Shown: one piece after another, positions 2,415 to 63,826 of the stretch
Layout: the number at the start of each line of letters is the position of its first letter
Numbering within the stretch: position 1 is the first letter of the stretch
Assembly (NCBI GenBank): GCA_038087875.1
Contig: CM075987.1
Location: forward strand, 16,184,001 to 16,248,000
DNA from: Malacoraja senta
Lineage: Eukaryota
DNA length: 64,000 nt
Reading direction: 5' to 3'
Made by a program: the position numbers and the translations under genes
Notes under the pieces: model-generated
Databases searched by the model: none
Told to the model about the DNA's origin: nothing
What the model saw: the letters and a program-made list of their open reading frames with translations, nothing else

Positions 2415-4557
2415 CATAGATACATAGATACATAGAAATTAGGTGCAGGAGTAGGCCATTCGGCCCTTCGAGCCTGCACCGCCATTCAATACGATCATGG
2501 CTGATCATCCAACTCAGTATCCCGTACCTGCCTTCTCTCCATACCCCCTGATCCCTTTAGCCACAAGGGCCACATCTAATTCCCTCTTAAATATAGCCAA
2601 TGAACTGGCCTCAACTACCCTCTGTGGCAGAGAGTTCCAGAGATTCACCACTCTCTGTGTGAAAAAGTTTTTCCTCATCTCGGTCTTAAAGGATTTTCCC
2701 CTTATCCTTAAGCTGTGACCCCTTGTCCTGGACTTCCCCAACATCGGGAACAATCTTCCTGCATCTAGCCTGTCCAACCCCATAAGAATCTTGTATGTTT
2801 CTATAAGATCCCCTCTCAATCTCCTAAATTCTAGCGAGTATAAGCCAAGTCTATCCAGTCTTTCTTCATATGAAAGTCCTGACATCCCAGGAATCAGTCT
2901 GGTGAACCTTCTCTGCACTCCCTCTATGGCTATAATGTCCTTCCTCAGATTTGGAGACCAAAACTGTACGCAATACTCCAGGTGTGGTCTCACCAAGACC
3001 CTGTACAACTGCAGTAGAACCTCACTGCTCCTATACTCAAATCCTCTTGCTATGAAGGCCAACATACCATTCGCTTTCTTCACTGCCTGCTGCACCTGCA
3101 TGCCTACTTTCAATGACTGGTGTACCATGACACCCAGGTCTCGCTGCATCTCCCCATTTCCTAATCGGCCACCATTTAGATAATAGTCTGCCTTCCCGTT
3201 TTTGCTACCAAAGTGGATAACCTCACATTTATCCACATTATACTGCATCTGCCAAACATTTGCCCACTCACCCAGCCTATCCAAGTCACCTTGCAGTCTC
3301 CTAGCATCCTCCTCACAGCTAACACTGCCCCCCAGCTTAGTGTCATCCGCAAACTTGGAGATGTTGCTTTCAATTCCCTCGTCCAGATCATTAATATAAA
3401 TTGTAAATAGCTGGGGTCCCAGCACTGAGCCTTGTGGTACCCCACTAGTCACTGCCTGCCATTGTGAAAAGGACCCGTTTACTCCTACTCTTTGCTTCCT
3501 GTTTGCCAGCCAGTTCTCTATCCACATCAATACTGAACCCCCAATACCGTGTGATTTAAGTTTGTATCCTAATCTCTTATGTGGTACCTTGTCGAAAGCC
3601 TTCTGAAAGTCCAGATACAACACATCCACTGGTTCTCCCCTATCCACTCTACTAGTTACATCCTCGAAAAATTCTATAAGATTCGTCAGACACGATTTAC
3701 CTTTCGTAAATCCATGCTGACTTTGTCCAATGATTTCACCACTTTCCAAATGTGCTGCTATCCCATCTTTAATAACTGACTCTAGCAGTTTCCCCACTAC
3801 CGATGTTAGACTAACTGGTCTGTAATTCCCCGTTTTCTCTCTCCCTCCCTTCTTAAAAAGTGGGGTTACGTTTGCTACCCTCCAATCCTCAGGAACTACT
3901 CCAGAATCTAAAGAGTTTTGAAAAATTATCACTAATGCATCCACTATTTCTGGAGCTACTTCCTTAAGTACTCTGGGATGCAGCCTATCTGGCCCTGGTG
4001 ATTTATCGGCCTTTAATCCATTCAATTTACCCAACACCACTTCCCGACTAACCTGGATTTCACTCAGTTCCTCCATCTCCTTTGACCCGCGGCCCCCTGC
4101 TATTTCCGGCAGATTATTTATGTCTTCCTTAGTGAAGACGGAACCAAAGTAGTTATTCAATTGGTCTGCCATATCCTTGTTCCCCATGATCAATTCACCT
4201 GTTTCTGACTGCAAGGGACCTACATTTGATTTAACTAATCTCTTTCTCTTCACATATCTATAAAAACTTTTGCAGTCAGTTTTTATGTTCCCTGCCAGTT
4301 TCCTTTCATAATCTATTTTCCCTTTCCTAATTAAGCCCTTTGTCCTCCTCTGCTGGTCTCTGAATTTCTCCCAGTCCTCTGGTATGCTGCTTTTTCTGGC
4401 TAATTTGTACGCATCATCTTTTGCTTTGATACTATCCCTGATTTCCCTTGTTATCCACGGATGCACTACCTTCCTTGATTTATTCTTTTGCCAAACTGGG
4501 ATGAACAATTTTTGTAGTTCATCCATGCAGTCTTTAAATGCCTTCCATTGCATATCC
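2415..4557 (-). mobile_element. CR1/HER1-type LINE, 5'-truncated, with an uninterrupted ~680-codon ORF2 (RT) segment, antisense in a RALGDS intron
   Basis: ORF 2514-4559 has NYRPVSLTS, DFQKAFDKV, GVPQGSVLGP and FADD motifs; 3' tail is a (CTATGTAT)n-type octamer repeat at about 2415-2435. Confidence 0.95.
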
Positions 4558-4715
4558 AATGGAAGGCATCTGCTTTGGTTACCACCTCTGTATGGTTCAT
4601 CTGGGATACGGAAGACTGGAACTGAGATAATGGATCAGTATGCTATGGAAGGCAGGAAATGTGGCTGTATTTTTCTGCAAGCTCCACTAACACTGGCAAA
4701 TGTTTTCTCTGCTAG

Positions 4716-26730: not shown

Positions 26731-28794
26731 TAGTTTTAAAACTGTAAAGTGTTTAACTGCTGACCTACCATGTGGTGGCAGCAGTGGGTTTTTAACCAAT
26801 GAATTACAGAGCACTGGGCACTTACACACAGAACTAAGGATCAGCACCCTTCCACAAGTTCAAGATCAACTGCATTTCAAGTACTTTATATAGGTGACTT
26901 CCACATTACCGGGTGATGGGGGTGGGATTGTGAGGAGGTTTTCCTGTATGGGGGCTGGAATTGGAGGAGGTGAAGCTAGAGAGGTAGCAAGGTACTCCCA
27001 TATTAATTAATTAAGGTCTAATAAGCATTTGATTAACAAAAGGAAAGCGAATTTAAGATGCTCACAAGAAGGATTAGAGAAACTTTGTTCTAAAGGATTT
27101 AGAGTACAACATTTTCTCTTCCAAACGGAAAAGAATCTGAACAAGAGATTTAGCTTTGTTTTCTGTAAGAAAAACTGAATTTATGCTAGTCTTGTGTTCA
27201 GTAATTAGTTTGGGGCAGGAATTAACACTGTAGGATCGAAAGGCTCCTGTTCTCTGAAGGTTGGGATGTAACAAGTGATGCCGCTGAAGAAGGGTCTCGA
27301 CCCAAAACGTTACACATTCCTTCTCTCCAGAAATGCTGCCTGTCCCGCTGAGTTACTCCAGCACTTTGCTCCTCAGGGATCTATATTTGGGCCTCCTCCC
27401 CTTTTACTGATATATTTCATAATGAAGGAGAAAGGAGGAACAAAGAATTGTTCTGCCAAATTTGCAGTCAGCACTAGTTACAAAGGACAATAGTTTTGAG
27501 GAATAAAGGAGCTCATAGGACTAATGTTAACAGATTGGATAGGCACATGGATATGCAGAGAAGAGGGGGATATGGAGCATGTGCAGGTAGAAAGGATTAT
27601 TTCAACATGGCATCATGTTCAGCACAGACATTGTGACCAAAGAGCCTGCTCCTGTGCTGTACTTTCTTTATGTTCTAAGTGAGTAGCAAAACTATTCAGA
27701 TTAAATTTATTATGCAGAAATGTTGATCATTTAATTCATCTGTAAAGTAGGGAGCTGCAAACTATCATGTCACCCCATGAATTAAATGAGCATCGAAAAT
27801 ATTTTGAATTGTGCCCATAAACAAGAACATGCCAAACCCAAGTGCTAATGGCGCAGAAAACAAACCACATCATTGATGTTCCTCATCTGATAAAGTGGAT
27901 GACCAGTCCAAGTGGAATTTGTAAAGAGCATTAAGGGAGGGACAGCAAAGTACACACAATGTATTGCATTTTGAGCTCCTGAGAAGCATTGAAATATATT
28001 ATATCTGCTTAGGACCTAGCCTTGCTTAATAATTTTGACTGCATACTGCCACAAAGATAAGCCTTGCATAAATCCAAGTTTTTAAATTTTCACTTATTTC
28101 ATCCAAAATCTGAATACAAATATTTTATAATACGAAATACTAGGAGAGTTGGTCTGTAATAGTTTGAAGCCATTCTAAAATTTGAGTATTAGTCTAAATT
28201 GCTTTCCAGAGGTCTATATGAAGACCATTATAGGACGTGCTCATTTTTCAAAAACCACACAAGGAATAGCAAATAGCAAATGAACAAGGATGGACGAGGA
28301 TTAAATCCCCCAAATGCTGGCCTCCCTTCCTCAGTGTCCCAAATGGATTTGCATTTAAATTGAGGACCATGGCTTGCAACGGGTCTCTGCCAAACATCTG
28401 CAACATATCTTGTGTAAATGCAAAGCATGGACTCTGGTTCTTGAAAAAGATGTTGAAACGGTCAGTCTCAAATGGGAAACAAAAAAAATACTGCTTCGCA
28501 GTTGAGCACAAAGCACACCAAAATAAGCTCAAAGGGGGTGGGCACAAATCATGCACAGTGCAAATTACTACCTTGTGAAAATGCTGTAATTGTTTATTTT
28601 ATGTTACTTTGCATGTTACTGTGCAAGTCCGTAAAGAATAATAAACTCAACACAGCTGGTCTAGCCTTTAACTTTTTTTTCTGTTAGCAAATTACATATG
28701 GTTCTTATTTAAACCAATTTGAGAAAATCTTTGAGTTGAAGAGATGCATTGTCTAATTCTAAAGGAAGAGTAACTCAATGTGCATTTTTCTGCC

Positions 28795-28994
28795 NNNNNN
28801 NNNNNNNNNNNNNNNNNNNNNNNNNNNNNNNNNNNNNNNNNNNNNNNNNNNNNNNNNNNNNNNNNNNNNNNNNNNNNNNNNNNNNNNNNNNNNNNNNNNN
28901 NNNNNNNNNNNNNNNNNNNNNNNNNNNNNNNNNNNNNNNNNNNNNNNNNNNNNNNNNNNNNNNNNNNNNNNNNNNNNNNNNNNNNNNNNNNNNN
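28795..28994. other. Assembly gap (200 N)
   Basis: Run of N; the round size suggests a scaffolding placeholder. Confidence 1.
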
Positions 28995-29879
28995 CACAGC
29001 ATCACATCACAGGTGGGACCAAGTCTAAGCATCAACTTTGATGGGGAATGGCCTGCTAACCGAAACATGACACAATACATTGATCGGAAATGGAATAGAA
29101 CAAAGTATTTACATAGTAACAAATTGCAAGAACAATGTTCCAATAGATTGTCAGCAGATTCAAACCATGATTTTTTGATTGAATTCATCGATTCAGCATG
29201 GAGCCAGGCCCTTCGGCCCACACCGACCATCGCTTCACACTGTTATCCCACATTCTCATCCACACCCTGCACACCAGGGGCAATTTATAGAGGCCAAATT
29301 ACCTACAAACTCTCACATCTTTGGTACGTTGGAGCAAACCTGAGCACCCGGAGAAAACCCACACGGTCACAAGGAAAAGCGTGCAAACTCCACACAGATG
29401 GCACCCGAGGTCAGGATCGAACTCGGGTCTCTGATGCTGTGAGGCAGCAGCTCTATTAGCTGCTGTGTTGTGGTTGGAAGATCCAAAGGTAGAAAGAAAC
29501 ATGATATACGAGTAACACCTGTTGGTGCTTTGCATTGGATGGAAATGTCAACATTTTTTAAATCATTGATGCAAATATGTTTCTATAAATAAGATGCTAT
29601 TACTTGTAAATGACCGTCTGGTGACTGTACGCATCATTTATGACTGTCTCTGATAACACAAGCCGAGGGAAATAAAAGTCAAACCTGCTGTTGGTCAGAG
29701 TTCCTGTGTTAATACTCATATTCTGCAGACTGCAATTGAGATCATCTGGTGCAGGAGACCCAGTGAACAGCTCAGCAATAAACCCTGTCCATTCCCACTC
29801 ATCATGTCACCCAAGTCCTTCTCAGGTAGTCAGGGAGAATAAGGGAGCTGAACAAGGGAGGAAATTACCCCGCCGATCT

Positions 29880-44324: not shown

Positions 44325-45106
44325 GAAGAAGGGTCCCGAACTGAAACGTCATCTGTCCATTTCCTCCGTAGATGCTCCTGACCCGCTGAGTTTCTCCAGC
44401 ATCTTGTGTTTTGCTTAAGATTCCAGCGTCTGCAGCTCCTTGCATCTCCAGATATAGTTGCAGTGCCTTGTCTTTTCACTAAACCATTGGAGTGGGTCTC
44501 ATCGGTCGGTACAAGTCCTGGCATCCAGAGGAAGCTGCAGCTCCAAATTCAGCTCCCAATTCTCCATAACCCAACATGAACATTTTAATAATGTTACAAA
44601 GCAACACGGAGCTTCTTGCACAGGTTTCTTCCAAAAGGAATCTGCAAGACTGAAGATTGATTACTTGGGAATTGTTGGTGGAGATGAAGAGTCAGATGTT
44701 AATGAAGCATCATATAAACCTCGACTGAGCGAAAACCCATTCTTCATTCTGGAGACTTGTTATCGGGTGGTACCATGTCATCAGAGGTGTTGCTTGAATA
44801 AAGTGAGAGTCCATGTTACTGCGTGCAAAGTAGGCCATATACCAGGAAGGGACTGCTGCTACCAATCCGTTCTAGACAAGCAGATTAGACGGCATCATCA
44901 GGTCAAACATTACCACCTCAGTTTCAGCTGCGACCTTGAAGTCCTCACACGCTCAATGCCCGTGTACCAATTCCCAGTGAGGCTCCATGCACAGCAATCA
45001 TGGGTTGTGGGCTGCCCTGGCAGTGATCCCAGAGTGGCCATGCTTCCAAGTTACGTACAGAGTTCCGGAAAGGCAGGCGTGGCAAGGCCTCAGGAGGTGC
45101 GGCTGG

Positions 45107-45290
45107 TCACCAGCTGGGGTGGGAGAAGACGATGTTGTACAGCTTCGCCCAATGAGCAAACACATCCTTCTCGGTGATGAAGCGATGGTGGCTGCCCTTC
45201 TTCACCTTCTCATTCCCAAGGAAGGTACTGCACTCGTCCGGACCTTTCGGCTCATAGTAATGATATGGCATTCGCTTGTGCTGGGCCTTA
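45107..45290 (-). CDS. ST6GALNAC6: ST6GALNAC6 terminal coding exon with motif III and VS (KAQHKRMPYHYYEPKGPDEC...HHRFITEKDVFAHWAKLYNIVFSHPSW*)
   Basis: caacag acceptor; MPYHYYEPKGPDEC and HHRFITEK match ST6GALNAC6; TGA stop. Confidence 0.95.
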
Positions 45291-54127: not shown

Positions 54128-56647
54128 CTGTAAAGAAATGACGAGAAAGGAGTTTGAGCACATGTGGGATTTTGCATCTACAGCTGACAAGAGGAACAGT
54201 ATTTCCATATGACAGATATTCCAATAATGAGTCAGTGCATTTGTTTTGGTGGACACCTGCTTTATATTCCCTAATTCCACTTTCCCACAGAAGATTAAAA
54301 TTAACAATCCTTACTGAATTGAAAATGGAGCATTGTATTTTCATCTTAAGGATCCACAGATCTAGTGGTTCATACATCTATAAAACTGAAAATCATTTAT
54401 TTGTAGTTTGCATTTGTAATCTGTTGTTACATGTCATGTAGCATTACATGATGTCATGTCATGTAATGTTACAACTGACACTAAGCCACAAAGGAGATAA
54501 TTTACTAATTTAAGTTTAAAAGAGTAGAGAGAGGATGAGATGTTAAGAGGTTTAGTCAGGAATTGCACAGTTTAAAGTCGACAATTGCTGAAAGTATGAT
54601 CACCGAAGATGGTTGGTTCAAAAACCGGGGCAATAAATTTGCCAGAATTGGAATAGCGCAGAGATCTTGGGGGGGGGGGGGCTAGGACTATAGAAGTTTG
54701 CAGAGGTGAAAAGCGGTGGAATAAGTGTGGTGTATCGATGTACTTGAAAATAAGGAAGAGTACATGCAACACAATGGTTGTCCAAGAGCCAGCGTGGATC
54801 ACAGGGAACATGGACAATGGATTAACTGGATTGGGAAACAGTTTTGTTGGGCAAGAAATATCTTTTGTTGCCATTGCACCAACTTGTGGAGAACACAAGA
54901 ATGTTATGGACACAGTTTATCAAGCATACATGACCCTGTCACATCATGGAATTCAAATTCAAGAGAATTGTATGGGATATATTTAAAGCACTAAGTCAAC
55001 ATCAGGCCAATTCTCAATACCAAAATGTTGCAAGTTCATGAAAGCCTCAAACATGGTTAAGGAGAGAGTTTTACTGGTCTCAGGTCTGGTATAGTTACAA
55101 GGTTAAAGGAAATATTTAGAGTTTTACTCTTAGCACAAAAGCAGCTAAACTATGATTTGTGATTTAAAATCCTGAAAAGTTAACATTGAATAAAATAGAA
55201 ATGTTCCAATGACTCAATGATTAACTAGCAGAGGACAAATAAATACAGGTGGTTAAATGCAGGTTAAAAGAGCAAGATATTAGGATTTAAAAAAAATAAT
55301 AATTAGGAATTGGAATGCACGCCACTATTCAAATTAAATAGTAGTTTTCCCCCTCAATAGGGAACGCTAATAGTTGTAGGGATTTTTTTTTAAATTTTGA
55401 AAAAATGAGATAATGGTGATAATTAAAGGTCAAAATGTAAAAACAAGGAACTGCAGATGCTGGTTCACACAGAAGAACATAAAGTGCTGGAGTAACTCAA
55501 TGGGTCAGGCAGCATCTCTGGAGAACATAGGATAGATGACGTTTTGGATCGGGACCCTCCTTCAGACTGGAGATGCTGCCAGACCTGCTGAATTACTCCA
55601 GCACTTTGTACACTTTTGTGGTAATTGGATTGATCTTCTGAAAGAGCTGGCACACACTCACTCAATCACTAAAACATCAGCTTCAGTCCCAAAATATCTT
55701 GCATATATGTTCCATACTAGTTATAGAAATGGATTGTGGCTGGCTTACAAAGTCCATTTTAATAAGTTGCTCAATAAATACTAATTATAATCACAACACA
55801 AGAATTGTTTCAGAAAGTGTGGGGCAATGAGTCTGAGAAATACAGACCAGCATTTGCAAAGTAGATTTTTGGTCAAGAAAACAAAAATTCTTATCCAGTT
55901 TCTCTAGCAATTGTTGTTATAGAAACAGTGAACAGCTCACCATATTTTTCATGCCGTTCAAGGCTGTTAGCAGCAGCACTACACCCGTGAATGTTGCATC
56001 CTCACCTCAAGTGTGCCTGCAATGAAACAAATCACTAAGTAAACACACCACTGCAAAATAAAACACATCCGAGCAACATTGAGTGAATCAAGCAATCAGG
56101 AAAAGGTTGGAAACACTCAGCAGCTCGGAGTACAAATAAATCATTGACATTTTGAATTAAAGATCATGTTTCATAACTGGCAGAGCAAAATCAGGTTGGT
56201 TTTACATTGCAGAGAGGATAGGGGGTTGAGGCAAAGACATGGATAACGTGAAGGCCAATAGTCATGGGGATAAGATTTAAATGGGGTAATCTGGTCAATG
56301 GATCACTTGTACAAAGGAACATAAAACCGTATCAAATAATTTCATCGTGCCGTAGAACCATACAGCGCGGAATCAGGCTCTTCAGCCCATCTTGTCCATA
56401 CAGCTACTTGAATAGGGTTTTAGGTCAAATGCAGACAAATGGGACTAGTCCAGTATGCTAACATGGTGGGCACAGACAAGGTGTCATATGAGTTGTACAT
56501 GTTGTAACTTCAAGTCCATTTGAACATAATATGAACACACAGGGGTGGCACAGCAGCGAAGCTGGTAGAGCTGCTGGCTCACAGTGCCAGAGACCCGGGT
56601 TTGATCCTGACTGGGTGTGCTGTCTGTGCAGAGTTTGCACGTTCTCC

Positions 56648-56701
56648 GGGGTGGAAGATTGCAACCTTCACGTGGTCCGCCCTGTTTCGACTAATGCAAT
56701 C
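56648..56701 (+). ncRNA. Minimal HDV-like (double-pseudoknot) ribozyme motif
   Basis: P1 GGGGTGG/CCGCCCT with G1.U wobble, P2 GATTGCA/TGCAATC, P3 ACC/GGT, L3 TTCACGT, UUCG-capped mini-P4, J4/2 CTAA with candidate catalytic C56691. Confidence 0.85.
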
Positions 56702-56782
56702 AACTCGACGTGCACAAACGGAAGATCAAATAGAACAAGTTGTCCTACAACTTTAGGCTGTGCACGCCACACGAAAGAAGAA
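56648..56782 (+). mobile_element. 135-bp non-autonomous retroelement with 5' HDV-like ribozyme, (GAA)n tail and 11-bp TSD, nested in a V-SINE
   Basis: TSD GCACGTTCTCC at 56637-56647 and 56783-56793; 3' end CACACGAAAGAAGAA resembles that of the 44130-44324 LINE. Confidence 0.88.
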
Positions 56783-58073
56783 GCACGTTCTCCCTGTGAC
56801 CTCGTGGGTTTTCTCTGGGTGCTCCGGTTTCCTCCCACTTCCCAAAGATGTGCAGGTTTGTAGGTTAATTGGCTTTGGTAAATTGCCCTCCCCCCCTCCC
56901 CCCCGCCCCGCAGTATAGGATGCGAAAGTGGAATAATGGAACTAGTGTGTGGGTGATCAATGGTCACATTGACTCGGTGGGCCAAAGGGCCTGTTTACAT
57001 GCTGTATCTCTAAACTAAATCAAACACATCCGTACGTTCACTGAACAGAACGTTTAGGCTCAACATGCACTACAGTACATGGCAGAGGCAGAGTTGTTTG
57101 GTTAGCCTTAGACAGGCAGCTGCAGTAAGCAGAATCAAAATAAACAAACAAGCTGCAAATCACACACTTGATGTCCCAACTTGTGTTTGCAAAGTGCCCA
57201 AGGACACTTCCTGACCCACGTACATTCACGCTGCCATTTATATTTGCATTGCTTCCGATAGCATCTCTGGAAGCATGGACAATGTCGCCTTCAAACAAAC
57301 CGTGGCCACCAGGTTGAAGATAAGTTTCTTCACAGCACCCGTCAGATTCTTGAACACCACACAACACCAACCACTACCTGAGCAACCATGACCCTCAATG
57401 GACTTTGTTTTGGTTGCACTATTGACCGATTTAGTACTATTTTTATTACTATGGTTACCTAGTATTACTGTTGTTGATTTATTGTTTTATTAATTGTTAT
57501 ATATTAGCGTTATTGCATTGTGGGCCTACTGAGCTGCAGCAGGTAAGTATATTATGTCCTGCTGCCAGTACATATGACAATTAAACACTCTTGACATCTT
57601 TACATCTGCAAGATGAGAACAATAATATTTCAACCGGTTTCTCTGGACATTCACAACAAGCTGCAGAATAAGACCAGAAGACATAGGTGCAGAATTAGGC
57701 CATTCGATTCACCGAGTCCGCTCCACCATTCGATCATGGCTGCTCTATTTTTCTCTCTAAACCCCATTCTCCTGTCTTCGCCCCATAACCTTTGCTGCTC
57801 TTATTAATCAAGAACCTATCAATCCCCGCTTTAAAAATACCCAATGATGTGGCCTCCAGCGTTGTCCGTGACCATGGATCTCAAGGGAAGGTCCACCATG
57901 TAATGTTGCAACTGCCTTCCCACCAATCCCCCACCCCCATCCCCTCCCCACCAACCCCTCCAACAACCCACCCTCCCCCCACATGCCCATCCTGCTCAGG
58001 TCCACCCATCCCCACACCAGAAAGTCAGGAGTGTTGAAGTAATTATCAATAATACTAGATAATCAAACCATAA

Positions 58074-58591
58074 AGGGGCTGTCCCACAGCGGCAACCTAA
58101 TTGGCGAGTTTAGAAGAGTTTAGGAGAGTTTGAAAAAGTGTCATGTTGAAGACCTCCTTCGACTATGTTGAAGACTAGCTTCAACTAGCTTCGGGAAAAT
58201 TTTGGACACCAAATAGTGGAGAGTGAAGACGACCTCCTTCGATCTCCTTCGACCTCCCTTCAACTATGTTGAAGACTATCTACGACTACCTTTGATTACC
58301 TTCATTACCCTCGATTACCTACGAATAACATGCCGACCTACTACGGCCTACTTCGACTAAACCTACGAGTAAAAAAATATCGATTTTTTCCATGGCGACC
58401 TTTTGTTACTCGCGGGAATTTTGCAGCATGTTGAAAAATACGCCACAACTTAGCTGAGGCCTCGAGTACGCGGGGACTACTCTCGAGCATGAAGAGAGTT
58501 ACAAAGACCTCCTAGGACCTCGTGTCAACCATGCTGCGAGGGCAAACTCTTCTAAACTCGCCAATTAGGTCGCCACAGTGGGACAGCCCCT
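58074..58591. mobile_element. Harbinger-like MITE with ~47-bp TIRs
   Basis: AGGGGCTGTCCCAC...TTTAGAAGAGTTT matches the inverted copy at about 58545-58591; flanks TAA/TTA; TIR start related to 46201. Confidence 0.75.
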
Positions 58592-62216: not shown

Positions 62217-63826
62217 CAGTGCCCTCCATAATATTTGGGACAAAGACCCATCAATTATTTATTTGCCTCTGTACTCCACAATTTTGAGATTTGTAATAGA
62301 AAACAAATCACATGTGGTTAAAGTGCACATTGTCAGATTTTTATGAAGGCCATTTTTGGTTTCACCATGTAGAAATTACAGCAGTGTTTATACATAGTCC
62401 AACCCATTTTAGGGCACCTTAATGTTTGGGACACATGGCTTCGCGTGTGTTTGTAATTGCTCAGGTGTGTTTAATTGCCTCCTTAATGCAGGTATAAGCG
62501 AGCTCTCAGCACCTAGTCTTTCCTCCAGTCTTTCTATCACGTTTGGAAACTTTAATTGCTGTTTATCAACATGAGGACCAAAGTTGTGCCAATAAAAGTC
62601 AAAGAAGCCATTATGGGACTGAGAAACAAGAATAAAACGGTTAGAGACATCAGCCAAATCTTAGGCTTACCAAAATCAACTGTTTGGAACATCATTAAGA
62701 AGAAAGAGAGCATTGGTGAGCTTACTAATCGCAAAGGGACTGGCAGGCCAAGGAAGACCTCCACAGCTGATGACAGAAGAATTCTCTCTATAATAAAGAA
62801 AAAAAACCAAACACCTGTCCGACAGATCAGAAACACTCTTCAGGAGTCAGGTGTGGATTTGCCAATGACGACCGTCCGCAGAAAACTTCATGAACAGAAA
62901 TACAGAGGCTACACTGCAAGATGCAACCCACTGGTTAGCCGCAAAAAATGGGATAGCCAGGTTACAGATTGTCAAGAAGTACTTAAAAGAGCAACCACAG
63001 TTCTGGAAAAAGGTGTTGTGGACAGATGAGACAAAGATTAACTTATATCAGAGTGATGGCAAGAGCAAAGTATGGAGGAGAGAAGGAACTGCCCAAGATC
63101 CAAAGCATACCATCTCATCTGTGAAACACGAAGGTGGGGGTGTTATGGGCTGGGCATGTATGGCTGCTGAAGGTACTGGCTCACTTATCTTCATTGATGA
63201 TACATCTGCTGATGGTAGTAGCATAATGAATTCTGAAGTGTATAGACACATCCTATCTACTCAAGTTCAAACAAATGCCTCAAGACTCATTGGCCGGCAG
63301 ATCCCCAACTAAAGCAACAAAGGAGTTTTTCAAAGCTACAAAATGGTAAATTCTTGTGTGGCCAAGTCAATCACCCGATCTGAACCCAATTGAACATGCC
63401 TTTTATATGCTGAAGAGAAAACTGAATGGGGCTAGCCCCAAAACAAGCATAAGCTAAAGATGGCTGCAATACAGGCCTGGCAGAGCATCACCCGGGAAGA
63501 CACCCAGCAACTGGTGATGTCCATGAATCGCAGACTTTAAACAGTCATTGCATGCAAAGGATATGCAACACAATACTAAACATGACTACTTTCATTTACG
63601 TGATATTGCTGTGTACCATACATTATGGTGCCCTGAAATAGGTGGACTATGTATAAACATTGCTGTAATTTCTACATGGTGAAACCAAAAATGGCCTTCA
63701 TAAAAATCTGACAATGTGCACTTTAACCACATGTGATTTGTTTTCTATTACAAATCTCAAATTGTGGAGTACAGAGGCAAATAAATAAATGATGGGTCTT
63801 TGTCCCAAACATTATGGAGGGCACTG
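62217..63826 (+). mobile_element. Full-length Tc1-family DNA transposon (1610 bp) with an inactivated transposase
   Basis: TA-flanked CAGTGCCCTCC...GGAGGGCACTG; TIRs of about 200 bp; ATG at 62571; paired-like HTH, GRPRK, WTDET and SPDLNPIE motifs. A frameshift near 62945 and a deletion near 63300 remove the second catalytic Asp region. Confidence 0.95.

What the first reader, a model, noticed from the sequence alone, without database searches (positions are those of the whole stretch)
56648..56782. 135-bp mobile element whose first nucleotide is the cleavage site of a minimal HDV-like ribozyme
Seen: an insertion between perfect 11-bp TSDs. Its first 54 nt pair by hand into the full HDV topology: P1 56648-54/56677-83 with G1.U wobble, J1/2 AA, P2 56657-63/56695-701, P3 ACC/GGT, L3 UUCACGU, a G for P1.1, P4 reduced to a UUCG hairpin, and J4/2 CUAA (C56691). 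A further hairpin follows (CGTGCACA...TGTGCACG enclosing AGTTGT/ACAACT), then a CACACG(A)-(GAA)n end. I see no tRNA A/B-box head. Known: HDV-like ribozymes process the 5' ends of R2, L1Tc/ingi and some RTE elements. Inference: this is a promoter-independent 'ribozyme-headed SINE' that excises itself from read-through transcripts and uses an Ingi/Vingi-like LINE for retrotransposition. I cannot confirm whether it is already described in elasmobranchs.
Basis: partly seen in the sequence, partly recalled or inferred. Interest (0 to 1): 0.9.

Follow-up and report, generated by a model that had tools for sequence, protein, structure and literature searches.

The report
Ribozyme-headed mini retroelement from a LINE
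This 135-base insertion is a young, abundant, protein-less derivative of a LINE retrotransposon, and its first 54 bases keep the fold of an HDV/CPEB3-type self-cleaving ribozyme that would cut the RNA exactly at the element's first base.

Summary
Window 56648-56782 is a 135-nt insertion between perfect 11-bp target-site duplications. It lies inside a SINE-like repeat that is uninterrupted in another copy. The genome holds 355 exact copies of its 54-nt head. All 30 copies examined begin at the same base; 24 of 30 have perfect 9-13-bp duplications, and the (GAA)n tails vary in length.

It is not a classical SINE. Nt 1-72 match the 5' end and nt 93-135 the 3' end of a compact single-ORF endonuclease/reverse-transcriptase LINE, so it is a bipartite non-autonomous LINE.

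The hand-drawn HDV topology is real:
- 3 of 200,000 shuffles reproduce it at nt 1.
- An Rfam HDV model aligns end to end with exactly 56648-56701, but weakly (16 bits, cut-off 44).
- Related LINEs carry HDV/CPEB3-type ribozymes at their 5' ends. A sister family in this genome scores 52-64 bits on the CPEB3 model (cut-off 35).
- P1, P2 and P3 covary across families: 97% of cells paired, 10 of 17 pairs changed on both sides.

P4 is reduced to about 6 nt, as in "minimal" HDV-like ribozymes.

Self-cleavage, promoter independence and an intact partner LINE are not shown. Verdict: a new variant of a known kind. It also hints at where the mammalian CPEB3 ribozyme came from.

The parts
56637..56647 (+). 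left target-site duplication (gcacgttctcc)
   Evidence: The same 11-mer occurs once in an uninterrupted paralogous copy of the host repeat (L173).
56648..56782 (+). 135-nt bipartite non-autonomous LINE (young subfamily)
   Evidence: 40 of 40 scored genome matches are 99-100% identical; 30 of 30 copies share the same 5' end; 355 exact copies of the 54-nt head.
56648..56701 (+). 54-nt minimal (P4-less) HDV/CPEB3-type ribozyme fold; predicted cleavage 5' of G56648
   Evidence: descriptor statistics; RF02682 aligns model positions 1-74 to exactly 56648-56701, 16 bits, E 0.33; covariation; helix table.
56648..56654 (+). P1 5' strand (pairs with 56677-56683; G1.U36)
   Evidence: Pairs 5, 6 and 7 change on both sides among families. 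The older subfamily has U5-A32 instead of U5.G32.
56657..56663 (+). P2 5' strand (pairs with 56695-56701)
   Evidence: 5 of 7 P2 pairs change on both sides. P2 is not modelled by the Rfam CMs that found the relatives.
56664..56676 (+). P3 (ACC/GGT) with L3 TTCACGT
   Evidence: L3 is identical in the own-genome families shown (window young and old, L161, L163, L165, L167) and in the printed Vingi-2_Gav 5' end.
56677..56684 (+). P1 3' strand plus G56684 (candidate P1.1 partner of a C in L3)
   Evidence: The G after P1' is present in all 11 parsed heads.
56685..56690 (+). P4 remnant/linker TTTCGA
   Evidence: Relatives have 17-50 nt here forming hairpins. A second family in this genome also has only 7 nt.
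56691..56694 (+). J4/2 CTAA with candidate catalytic C56691
   Evidence: C-N-(R)-A-A is present in all parsed heads; the common variant T56692G gives CGAA.
56695..56701 (+). P2 3' strand
56702..56719 (+). rest of the segment shared with the LINE 5' UTR (element nt 55-72)
   Evidence: element nt 1-72 = L076:1067-1138, 95.8%; LINE copies L061, L063, L064 share the head and following bases.
56740..56782 (+). segment shared with the LINE 3' end, including the (GAA)n tail (56773-56782)
   Evidence: element nt 93/98-135 match the 3' ends of 9 of 11 LINE-derived loci at 88-95%.
56709..56766 (+). 8-bp stem CGTGCACA/TGTGCACG enclosing a second small stem
   Evidence: MFE and centroid. One arm comes from the LINE 5' part and the other from the LINE 3' end. 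Function not tested.
56783..56793 (+). right target-site duplication

Best explanation
Window 56648-56782 is a recently amplified bipartite non-autonomous LINE. It consists of the first ~72-80 nt and the last ~40-46 nt of a compact single-ORF (endonuclease + reverse transcriptase, Vingi-like) LINE, joined by a short linker.

Its first 54 nt are that LINE's 5' ribozyme, an HDV-like nested double pseudoknot of the CPEB3 type in which P4 has shrunk to about 6 nt.

Proposed mechanism:
1. (Inferred) The element is transcribed as part of a longer RNA, or from an unidentified promoter.
2. (Inferred) The head folds and cleaves 5' of G56648, using C56691 in J4/2. This gives an RNA that starts exactly at nt 1 and owes nothing to upstream sequence.
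3. (Inferred from shared sequence) The 3' stem and (GAA)n tail, shared with the LINE, are recognised by the LINE's protein.
4. (Shown by the copies) Target-primed reverse transcription inserts a full-length copy with a 9-13-bp target-site duplication and a tail of variable length.

Shown: family structure, fixed 5' end, TSDs, shared LINE ends, and the fold's homology and covariation. Not shown: cleavage activity, the source of transcription, and the currently active partner.
For: Family and ends:
- 1411 candidates; 40 of 40 scored are 99-100% identical.
- 30 of 30 copies share the same first base.
- 24 of 30 have perfect TSDs of 9-13 bp.
- 355 exact heads.
- 549 further copies of older subfamilies share the head's 3' half.

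LINE origin:
- LINE copies L061, L063 and L064 carry the same head, followed at about nt 195 by an ORF with the endonuclease motif.
- element nt 1-72 and 93-135 match the two ends of ~1.55-kb LINE derivatives.
- RVT_1 domain; relatives are ~1000 aa with APE+RT and a conserved CxC..H..C motif.

Fold:
- 3 of 200,000 shuffles reproduce the topology at nt 1.
- stringent descriptor hits in 494,466 nt of 79 related loci fall at 4 distinct 5'-UTR sites and 3 distinct sites elsewhere.
- RF02682 aligns to exactly 56648-56701.
- Rfam HDV/CPEB3 models hit the 5' UTRs of relatives L089 (41.6 bits, E 1.8e-4), L153 (27.6 bits, E 0.0024) and L085 (30.3 bits, E 0.074).
- a model built from the window family finds L153 (E 0.0016) and L090 (E 0.011). 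Their P1 is compensated (A5-U32), although P1 was unpaired in that model.
- the sister LINE family in this genome scores 52-64 bits on RF00622 (cut-off 35); 39 of 59 scored candidates exceed the cut-off.
- P1+P3 on 14 sequences give 98.5% of 136 cells paired, 0 of 500 shuffles reaching the covariation score, and 46-56% paired in slid controls.
- P1+P2+P3 on 12 sequences give 97.0% of 198 cells paired and 10 of 17 pairs changed on both sides (0 of 500 shuffles).
- variants seen at >=10% in other runs' contigs are all compatible with the fold (C31U gives G.U; G32A gives U-A; one lies in the P4 linker; one at the N position of J4/2).
- minimal HDV-like ribozymes lacking P4 are a recognised class (passage read in PMC10879173).
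Against: - There is no experimental or RNA-end evidence. All runs offered were contigs, which cannot show RNA starts.
- The window head scores far below Rfam cut-offs (16 versus 44 bits). It gave no hit at all when 3.5 kb was searched at E<=10.
- The nested MFE of the whole element is no better than shuffles (z = 0.24), although that fold cannot include pseudoknots.
- P4 is essentially missing. Whether this particular 54-mer is active is unknown.
- 9 of 13 related LINE 5' windows gave no descriptor hit. Of those 9, L090 was later found by the CM, L111/L113 gave a partial CM match, and L085 carries a ribozyme with a mutated first base.
- Only old, broken copies of the partner LINE were found (79-93% identity). 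The 3 exact matches to a LINE-type 3' end with the young tail were all short elements.
- A fixed 5' end is equally expected from a fixed transcription start.
Confidence: 0.75

Rival explanations
1. The head is a vestige. It descends from a LINE ribozyme but lost catalysis when P4 was lost. The constant 5' end would then come from a defined transcription start or internal promoter in the first ~80 nt (as Pr77 does for L1Tc), and the conserved pairing would reflect another role such as protein binding, 5' protection or translation.
For: The Rfam score is well below cut-off. No RNA-end data exist. P4 is absent. In L1Tc the same 77 nt act as both promoter and ribozyme (abstracts of PMC3383444 and PMC3185411 in the listing).
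Against: Every core position expected of the fold is retained: G1.U, a C in L3, the G after P1', and C-N-A-A in J4/2. P4-less HDV-like ribozymes are a known class. A second P4-less family in this genome still passes the CPEB3 cut-off at 35-44 bits. Subfamily and cross-run variants keep the pairing.
Confidence: 0.17
2. It is an ordinary SINE driven by an internal RNA polymerase III promoter, with a tRNA-, 5S-, 7SL- or snRNA-derived head. The HDV-like drawing would be fortuitous.
For: It has SINE-like features: small size, high copy number, TSDs and a LINE-like tail.
Against: ARAGORN finds no tRNA in 56400-57000. No small-RNA family matches in Rfam. Nt 1-72 are the 5' end of a LINE. Fold statistics and covariation argue against chance.
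Confidence: 0.03
3. The partner LINE belongs to the RTE clade rather than Vingi. RTE elements are also compact, have a single ORF, produce bipartite derivatives, and are predicted to carry HDV-like ribozymes.
For: Kojima 2018 (PMC5786205, passages read) lists RTE among the clades with 5' ribozymes and bipartite derivatives. The element size (~3.3 kb) and the ~1000-aa ORF fit either clade.
Against: A conserved C-terminal CxC..H..C motif is present; that RTE lacks it is recalled, not tested. The 5' ends of Vingi-2_Gav and Vingi-4_Crp printed in that paper's supplement share architecture, L3, P3 and J4/2 with the sister LINE family here, and share L3 and architecture with the window head (compared by eye).
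Confidence: 0.25

Closest known systems
NARTc / RIME (non-autonomous derivatives of L1Tc / ingi in trypanosomatids, headed by the Pr77/L1TcRz HDV-like ribozyme)
   Same: Bipartite, ORF-less derivatives that keep the LINE's 5' end with its HDV-like ribozyme and the LINE's 3' end. The ribozyme defines the RNA 5' end (abstracts of PMC3383444, PMC3185411 and PMC4035085; passages of PMC5786205).
   Different: The host is a vertebrate-type genome rather than a trypanosomatid. The head is 54 nt with no P4 (L1TcRz is 77 nt). The tail is (GAA)n. Any promoter function of the head is untested.
R2 SIDEs (short internally deleted elements of R2, Drosophila; PMC3414825, abstract seen)
   Same: Internal-deletion derivatives that retain the 5' HDV-like ribozyme and the 3' protein-binding end.
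   Different: R2 is site-specific (28S rDNA), uses a restriction-like endonuclease, and is co-transcribed with rRNA. This element inserts at dispersed sites with 9-13-bp TSDs.
Vingi non-autonomous families (Vingi-1_EE derivatives; Vingi-2_ACar-derived SINE2-1_ACar), as cited in Kojima 2018. The original paper, PMC3002237, was not held.
   Same: Compact single-ORF APE-type LINEs that spawn bipartite derivatives. The printed 5' ends of Vingi-2_Gav and Vingi-4_Crp have the same helix lengths and the same L3 as this head.
   Different: In the passages read, Vingi is not listed among the clades with a 5' ribozyme. Clade membership of the partner here was not tested by phylogeny.
Mammalian CPEB3 ribozyme (Rfam RF00622)
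   Same: Same sub-type of HDV-like fold. A sister LINE family in this genome exceeds the family's cut-off at 52-64 bits. The window head shares L3 (TTCACGT) with those sister-family heads and with the RF00622 consensus printed.
   Different: The window head itself does not reach any RF00622 score. It lacks P4 and sits at the 5' end of a mobile element, not in a conserved intron.
Minimal (P4-less) HDV-like ribozymes from metagenomes, and theta ribozymes of phages (PMC10879173, passage read)
   Same: About 50-60 nt with no P4 domain.
   Different: Those are of unknown or phage origin and are associated with tRNAs. This one is at the 5' end of a eukaryotic retroelement and has a traceable P4-bearing ancestry.

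Membership tests
HDV-like (delta-like) self-cleaving ribozymes | Nested double pseudoknot: P1 and P2 interleaved, with P3 inside | tested here: met
   Searches show the pairings; 97.0% of 198 cells paired; 10 of 17 pairs changed on both sides; 0 of 500 shuffles; slid controls 44-54%.
HDV-like (delta-like) self-cleaving ribozymes | Catalytic C in J4/2 followed by purine-rich N-A-A, and a G after P1' able to form P1.1 with a C of L3 | tested here: met
   C56691-T-A-A, G56684 and C56669/C56671 in L3. The same positions are kept in all 11 parsed heads. The functional roles of these positions are recalled from the HDV literature, not tested.
HDV-like (delta-like) self-cleaving ribozymes | P4 helix | tested here: not met
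   Only TTTCGA lies between G56684 and C56691. P4 is absent in the recognised 'minimal' subclass, so this does not exclude membership.
HDV-like (delta-like) self-cleaving ribozymes | Score at or above an Rfam gathering threshold | tested here: not met
   RF02682 gives 16 bits against a cut-off of 44, and there was no hit in a 3.5-kb search. Sister families in the same genome do pass RF00622.
HDV-like (delta-like) self-cleaving ribozymes | Site-specific self-cleavage 5' of nt 1 | not testable with these tools
   Indirect only: 30 of 30 genomic copies begin at that base. The runs were contigs only.
Bipartite non-autonomous LINE (RIME/NARTc/SIDE type) | The 5' end equals the LINE 5' end, the 3' end equals the LINE 3' end, there is no ORF, and TSDs are present | tested here: met
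   (shared ends); (TSDs). At 135 nt it cannot encode the LINE protein.
Classical SINE | Head derived from tRNA, 7SL, 5S or snRNA with an internal pol III promoter | tested here: not met
   ARAGORN finds none. Rfam finds no small-RNA family. The head is a LINE 5' end.
Vingi clade of LINEs (for the partner) | Single ORF with APE and RT and no RNase H | tested here: met
   relatives of ~1000 aa carry PF03372/PF14529 plus PF00078, and no RNase H family is listed for those with the plain architecture. RVT_1. Only broken copies of the partner itself were seen.
Vingi clade of LINEs (for the partner) | RT-domain phylogeny placing it with Repbase Vingi references | not tested
The only supporting lead is the 5'-end likeness to the printed Vingi-2_Gav and Vingi-4_Crp ends (compared by eye).

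The most novel reading that the evidence does not exclude
Vertebrate Vingi-type LINEs carry CPEB3-type HDV-like ribozymes at their 5' ends. This genome holds at least 39 matches above the Rfam CPEB3 cut-off, and 5 of the 6 best are followed by the LINE ORF. The Repbase Vingi 5' ends printed in a 2018 supplement read the same way. The 'mammal-only' CPEB3 intronic ribozyme would then be an exapted LINE 5' end. The window's 54-nt head would be a naturally minimised, P4-less and still active descendant, giving the so far orphan 'minimal' HDV-like ribozymes a eukaryotic origin and function.
Probability: 0.45. Interest if true: 0.8.

Novelty: new variant of a known kind. Interest (0 to 1): 0.62.

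Why it matters
Ribozyme-headed non-autonomous LINEs are documented in trypanosomatids and Drosophila. This would be a vertebrate-type example, very young (99-100% identical copies), only 135 nt long, and headed by one of the smallest natural HDV-like folds. Its P4-bearing relatives sit in the same genome, which provides a ready-made natural series for asking what P4 contributes.

It also links two literatures. Kojima 2018 noted that only RTE, Ingi, Vingi and R2 make bipartite derivatives, and listed ribozymes for RTE, Ingi and R2 but not Vingi. The data here fill that gap.

Bendixsen et al. [quoted passage not shown] CPEB3-model matches at LINE 5' ends would supply such outgroups and a plausible origin.

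Compact Vingi elements with their UTRs are also being engineered as gene-insertion tools (review PMC13708176). A self-processing 5' module in their UTRs would therefore be of practical interest.

Tried and rejected
- Rfam at E<=10 over 55000-58500 gave nothing at the element. Only a 91-nt search gave the weak RF02682 alignment.
- The nested MFE of the element is not better than shuffles. This is uninformative for a pseudoknot.
- The search of earlier findings returned nothing for this genome or this sequence. One call was malformed.
- The 5' regions of three other LINE families from this genome gave no descriptor hit (L077-L079). L077 later proved to hold a CPEB3-type ribozyme whose P1 5' strand is disrupted in that copy.
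- MAFFT could not place P2' correctly for heads with long P4 (L153, L090, L081, L089, L085 in A2 and A4). For those, P2 was tabulated by script, and only P1+P3 were counted on all 14 sequences.
- Model R1 aligned L153's 3' end wrongly, across the P4 insertion.
- Sequencing runs: all 24 offered were Logan contigs. Laying 4 of them showed only presence, the same boundaries and some variants. It gave no RNA 5' ends and no proof of transcription.
- Search for an autonomous partner with the young tail: the 3 exact matches were all short elements, so no intact partner was found.
- One copy of the second P4-less family was extended by 1.8 kb and shows no LINE ORF, so its status is open.
- Papers not held: Kojima 2011 (PMC3002237) and Ruminski 2011 (PMC3308841).
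- The organism's class was not verified. The ORFs of 150 aa or more that were scanned in the window (8 of the 11 listed) are TE-derived or unassigned.

Full report
OBSERVATION

One search shows a 135-nt insert (56648-56782) between identical 11-mers (56637-47 and 56783-93). The flanks are one SINE-like repeat. A paralogous copy of that repeat in L173 runs through the site uninterrupted with a single copy of the 11-mer. This is therefore an insertion with a true target-site duplication.

The 'P4' is only TTTCGA. The nested folds recover P2 (in the MFE) and P1 (in the centroid), plus the downstream 8-bp stem 56709-16/56759-66. The energy is no better than shuffles (z = 0.24), which says little about a pseudoknot.

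IS IT MORE THAN CHANCE?

I wrote a descriptor for the whole topology: P1 at nt 1, J1/2, P2, P3, L3 with a C, G after P1', a 4-60-nt P4 region, C-N-R-A, and P2'. It hits the element and 3 of 200,000 dinucleotide shuffles. The descriptor was written after seeing the candidate, so this figure is somewhat generous. A stringent version (P1 7 bp, P2 >=7 bp) gives 2 hits in both strands of the window, at 56648 (+) and 43117 (-).

Rfam gives nothing when 3.5 kb is searched at E<=10. On 91 nt, RF02682 (the HDV ribozyme of F. prausnitzii) aligns model positions 1-74 to exactly 56648-56701, at 16 bits (cut-off 44) and E 0.33. The score is weak, but the boundaries are exact.

A MOBILE FAMILY WITH A FIXED 5' END

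The window's genome (1.94 Gb) gave 1411 first-look candidates. All 40 scored were 99-100% identical: 38 cover nt 1-135, one covers 2-135 and one covers 1-134. Two short partial matches were also listed.

In 30 of 30 fetched loci the element starts at the same base (29 with GGGG, 1 with CGGG) and ends in a (GAA)n tail of variable length. 24 of 30 have perfect TSDs of 9-13 bp: 11 bp in 10 copies, 12 in 6, 9 in 4, 10 in 2 and 13 in 2. One has 6 bp. Five have only imperfect repeats by my script.

The exact 54-nt head occurs 355 times. A pattern requiring the head's 3' half but a different base 51 nt downstream found 549 further copies (the reversed-pattern control found 0). These are older subfamilies and other bodies. 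The older head differs at two positions, G8 in J1/2 and A32, so U5-A32 is a Watson-Crick pair there and a U.G wobble in the young subfamily.

WHAT IT DERIVES FROM

Among the 549 copies, some heads continue into different sequence. L061, L063 and L064 share about 180 nt. In L063 an ORF follows from about nt 195 with the endonuclease motif ...LLLQETH..., and later an RT. These copies are broken by insertions and frameshifts.

A 251-aa piece of L063 found many copies at 79-88% aa identity (150 scored of 63,923 rough candidates). Eleven fetched loci hold ~1.3-2.0-kb derivatives that are 89-94% identical to each other. The 3' ends of 9 of the 11 match element nt 93/98-135 at 88-95%. L076 also carries element nt 1-72 at its 5' end (95.8%). 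The LINE 3' UTR is short: the Cys/His motif lies about 100 nt from the end.

The element is therefore the LINE's first ~72-80 nt plus its last ~40-46 nt, with a ~17-nt linker of unknown origin. It is a bipartite non-autonomous LINE, not a SINE. ARAGORN finds no tRNA.

Relatives of the RT in the protein database are ~1000-aa APE+RT proteins on 3.2-3.4-kb contigs. The best has 71% identity. No RNase H family is listed for those with the plain architecture. An invariant CxC..H..C motif lies near the C-terminus.

I did not find an intact partner, nor a LINE copy with the young subfamily's tail. The 3 exact pattern matches were all short elements.

IS THE FOLD CONSERVED IN RELATIVES?

I fetched 79 loci encoding relatives from metagenome contigs. 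Four lines of evidence follow.

1. Rfam on 12 of them that include the protein's N-terminus gave HDV-family hits on the + strand just 5' of the ORF:
 - L089:303-369, RF02682 41.6 bits, E 1.8e-4 (also RF00094, 32.6 bits).
 - L085:953-1019, 30.3 bits, E 0.074.
 - L153:710-797, RF00622 CPEB3, 27.6 bits, E 0.0024.
 - One drz-agam-2-2 match inside an ORF (L088, 18.3 bits, E 1.3) is probably noise.

2. My flexible descriptor hit 4 of 13 5'-UTR windows (L081, L086, L089, L153) and none in the other 9. The stringent one gave 9 hits at 8 starts in 494,466 nt. Four distinct sites are at 5' UTRs (L081:2797, L089:303, L090:663, L153:721) and three distinct sites are elsewhere. The 13 windows make up about 1.5% of the sequence scanned.

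3. A covariance model built only from window-family heads, with P2+P3 as the structure, found L153 (E 0.0016), L090 (E 0.011), a partial match in L111/L113, and L077. In L153 and L090, P1 position 5 is A and position 32 is U. That is a double change the model did not ask for.

4. L077 is the 5' region of another LINE family of this same genome (1014-aa ORF, about 45% aa identity to the partner in the RT). It scores 52.6 bits on RF00622 (cut-off 35, E 3.5e-12). Genome-wide, 51 matches were listed and 39 are over the cut-off, the best at 64.2 bits; 59 of a rough 102,231 candidates were scored, and 0 of 14 control genomes hit. Five of the six best are followed within about 100 nt by the APE ORF, which stays open for at least 496 aa in L160.

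The helix table of 11 heads shows eight different P2 helices (nine of the 11 rows are pairwise distinct in sequence), seven different P1 strand pairs and five different P3 pairs. In these 11 heads all P2 pairs are intact; P1 is broken only by the mutated first base of L085, and P3 only by one mispair in L167. L3 is TTCACGT in the own-genome families.

FORMAL COUNTS

On A4 (14 sequences, P1+P3):
- 98.5% of 136 cells are paired.
- 5 of 10 pairs change on both sides.
- The covariation score is 0.61 against 0.18 in shuffles (0 of 500 reach it).
- Slid controls give 46-56% paired.

On A5 (12 own-genome sequences, P1+P2+P3):
- 97.0% of 198 cells are paired.
- 10 of 17 pairs change on both sides (0 of 500).
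- The covariation score is 0.51 against 0.16.
- Slid controls give 44-54% paired.

Caveats apply. The rows represent roughly 4 (A5) to 8 (A4) independent lineages. Several were found with tools that reward P1/P3 pairing. P2, however, is not part of the Rfam models that found L161, L165, L153 and L089.

P4

Relatives have 17-50 nt forming a hairpin between the G after P1' and the catalytic C. The window family has 6 nt. A second family in this genome (L165-L170, L172; 53 nt) has 7 nt and still scores 35-44 bits on RF00622. One extended copy of that family shows no LINE ORF.

Minimal HDV-like ribozymes 'lack the P4 domain', and their origin and function 'remain to be determined' (PMC10879173, passage read).

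OTHER SPECIES AND RNA

24 runs from 15 studies hold the element, all as contigs. Laying four of them shows that flanks diverge exactly at 56648 and about 56783. The head variants present at >=10% are:
- C56678T, giving G.U.
- G56679A, giving U-A.
- G56689A, in the P4 linker.
- T56692G, turning CTAA into CGAA.

All are compatible with the fold. One run is a metatranscriptome, but contigs cannot show RNA ends or prove transcription. Cleavage in vivo therefore remains untested.

LITERATURE

- Ribozyme-headed bipartite derivatives are known for L1Tc/ingi (NARTc, RIME) and R2 (SIDEs) (listing and abstracts).
- Kojima 2018 (PMC5786205, passages) states that only RTE, Ingi, Vingi and R2 make bipartite non-autonomous LINEs. 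[quoted passage not shown] Vingi is not listed.
- That paper's supplement prints the 5' ends of Vingi-2_Gav and Vingi-4_Crp. By eye they have the same 7/2/7/3/7/3/7 architecture and the same L3. Their P3, J4/2 and P4 start are almost identical to the sister LINE heads here. I did not put that printed sequence into any tool.
- Six papers in the library hold both 'Vingi' and 'ribozyme'. In the three I read passages of, none links the two.
- Kojima 2011 and Ruminski 2011 were not held. They, and Repbase/Dfam, may already record part of this.
- I did not verify the organism's class.

VERDICT

The element is a young bipartite non-autonomous LINE. Its 54-nt head is a P4-less member, by descent and by structure, of the HDV/CPEB3-type ribozymes that head a Vingi-like LINE group.

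Cleavage at G56648 is the best explanation of the invariant 5' end (about 0.75). It is unproven, and the alternative of a catalytically dead but still structured head cannot be excluded.

It is a new variant of a known kind. It has a notable by-product: CPEB3-model ribozymes at LINE 5' ends.

Noticed in passing
L077:716-799 (-) = G000:C8:937615-937698; L159-L164; list: The Rfam 'Mammalian CPEB3 ribozyme' model (RF00622) matches this genome at least 39 times above its cut-off, up to 64.2 bits. 5 of the 6 best matches sit about 100 nt upstream of an APE+RT LINE ORF, which stays open for at least 496 aa in L160. The literature read says this ribozyme is unknown outside mammals.
   Followed up: partly
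Supplement of PMC5786205: The printed 5' ends of Repbase Vingi-2_Gav and Vingi-4_Crp read, by eye, as CPEB3-type HDV-like ribozymes. The passages I read do not list Vingi among the clades with a 5' ribozyme.
   Followed up: partly
L165:61-113(-), L166:101-153, L167:103-155, L168:64-116(-), L169:64-116(-), L172:99-151: A second P4-less head family (53 nt; P2 GGAAAGA/TCTTTCC) still passes the CPEB3 cut-off at 35-44 bits. Copies are preceded by a constant T, and P1 has only 6 pairs with no G.U at its base. One extended copy has no LINE ORF within 1.8 kb.
   Followed up: partly
L077:807-910 (-): Upstream of the complete CPEB3-type head lie three partial tandem repeats of its P2-P3-L3 core (RF00622 partial hits of 25.1, 25.1 and 17.3 bits). 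The P1 5' strand of the complete unit is disrupted in this copy.
   Followed up: no
G000:C1:229135530-229243067: Seven copies of a short head-bearing variant (head followed directly by the tail region) lie in one orientation, spaced 3.7-43.5 kb apart. They appear to be carried within a larger tandemly duplicated segment.
   Followed up: no
L090:820-866 and L095:551-596 (+): Matches to the histone 3' UTR stem-loop model (RF00032; 26.3 and 26.7 bits, cut-off 34, E 0.0005-0.003) lie near the start of the ORF in two metagenomic LINE relatives.
   Followed up: no
window 56540-56900: The element is inserted in a SINE-like repeat (...GAGTTTGCACGTTCTCC|CTGTGACC...). An uninterrupted paralogue lies in L173. 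ARAGORN calls no tRNA in 56400-57000.
   Followed up: partly
window 2514-4634 (-) and 62556-63029 (+): A 706-aa open frame with an RVT_1 domain (another retroelement), and a 157-aa frame with Tc1/mariner-type transposase HTH domains. Five other frames of 156-239 aa have no Pfam match. The two 239-aa frames (28740-29459 and 44458-45177) may be copies of one repeat.
   Followed up: no
run X10, record 9: A metatranscriptome contig joins element nt 1-67 directly to a second copy starting at nt 0/1 ('goes back 68'). This is a head-to-head partial tandem of the element.
   Followed up: no
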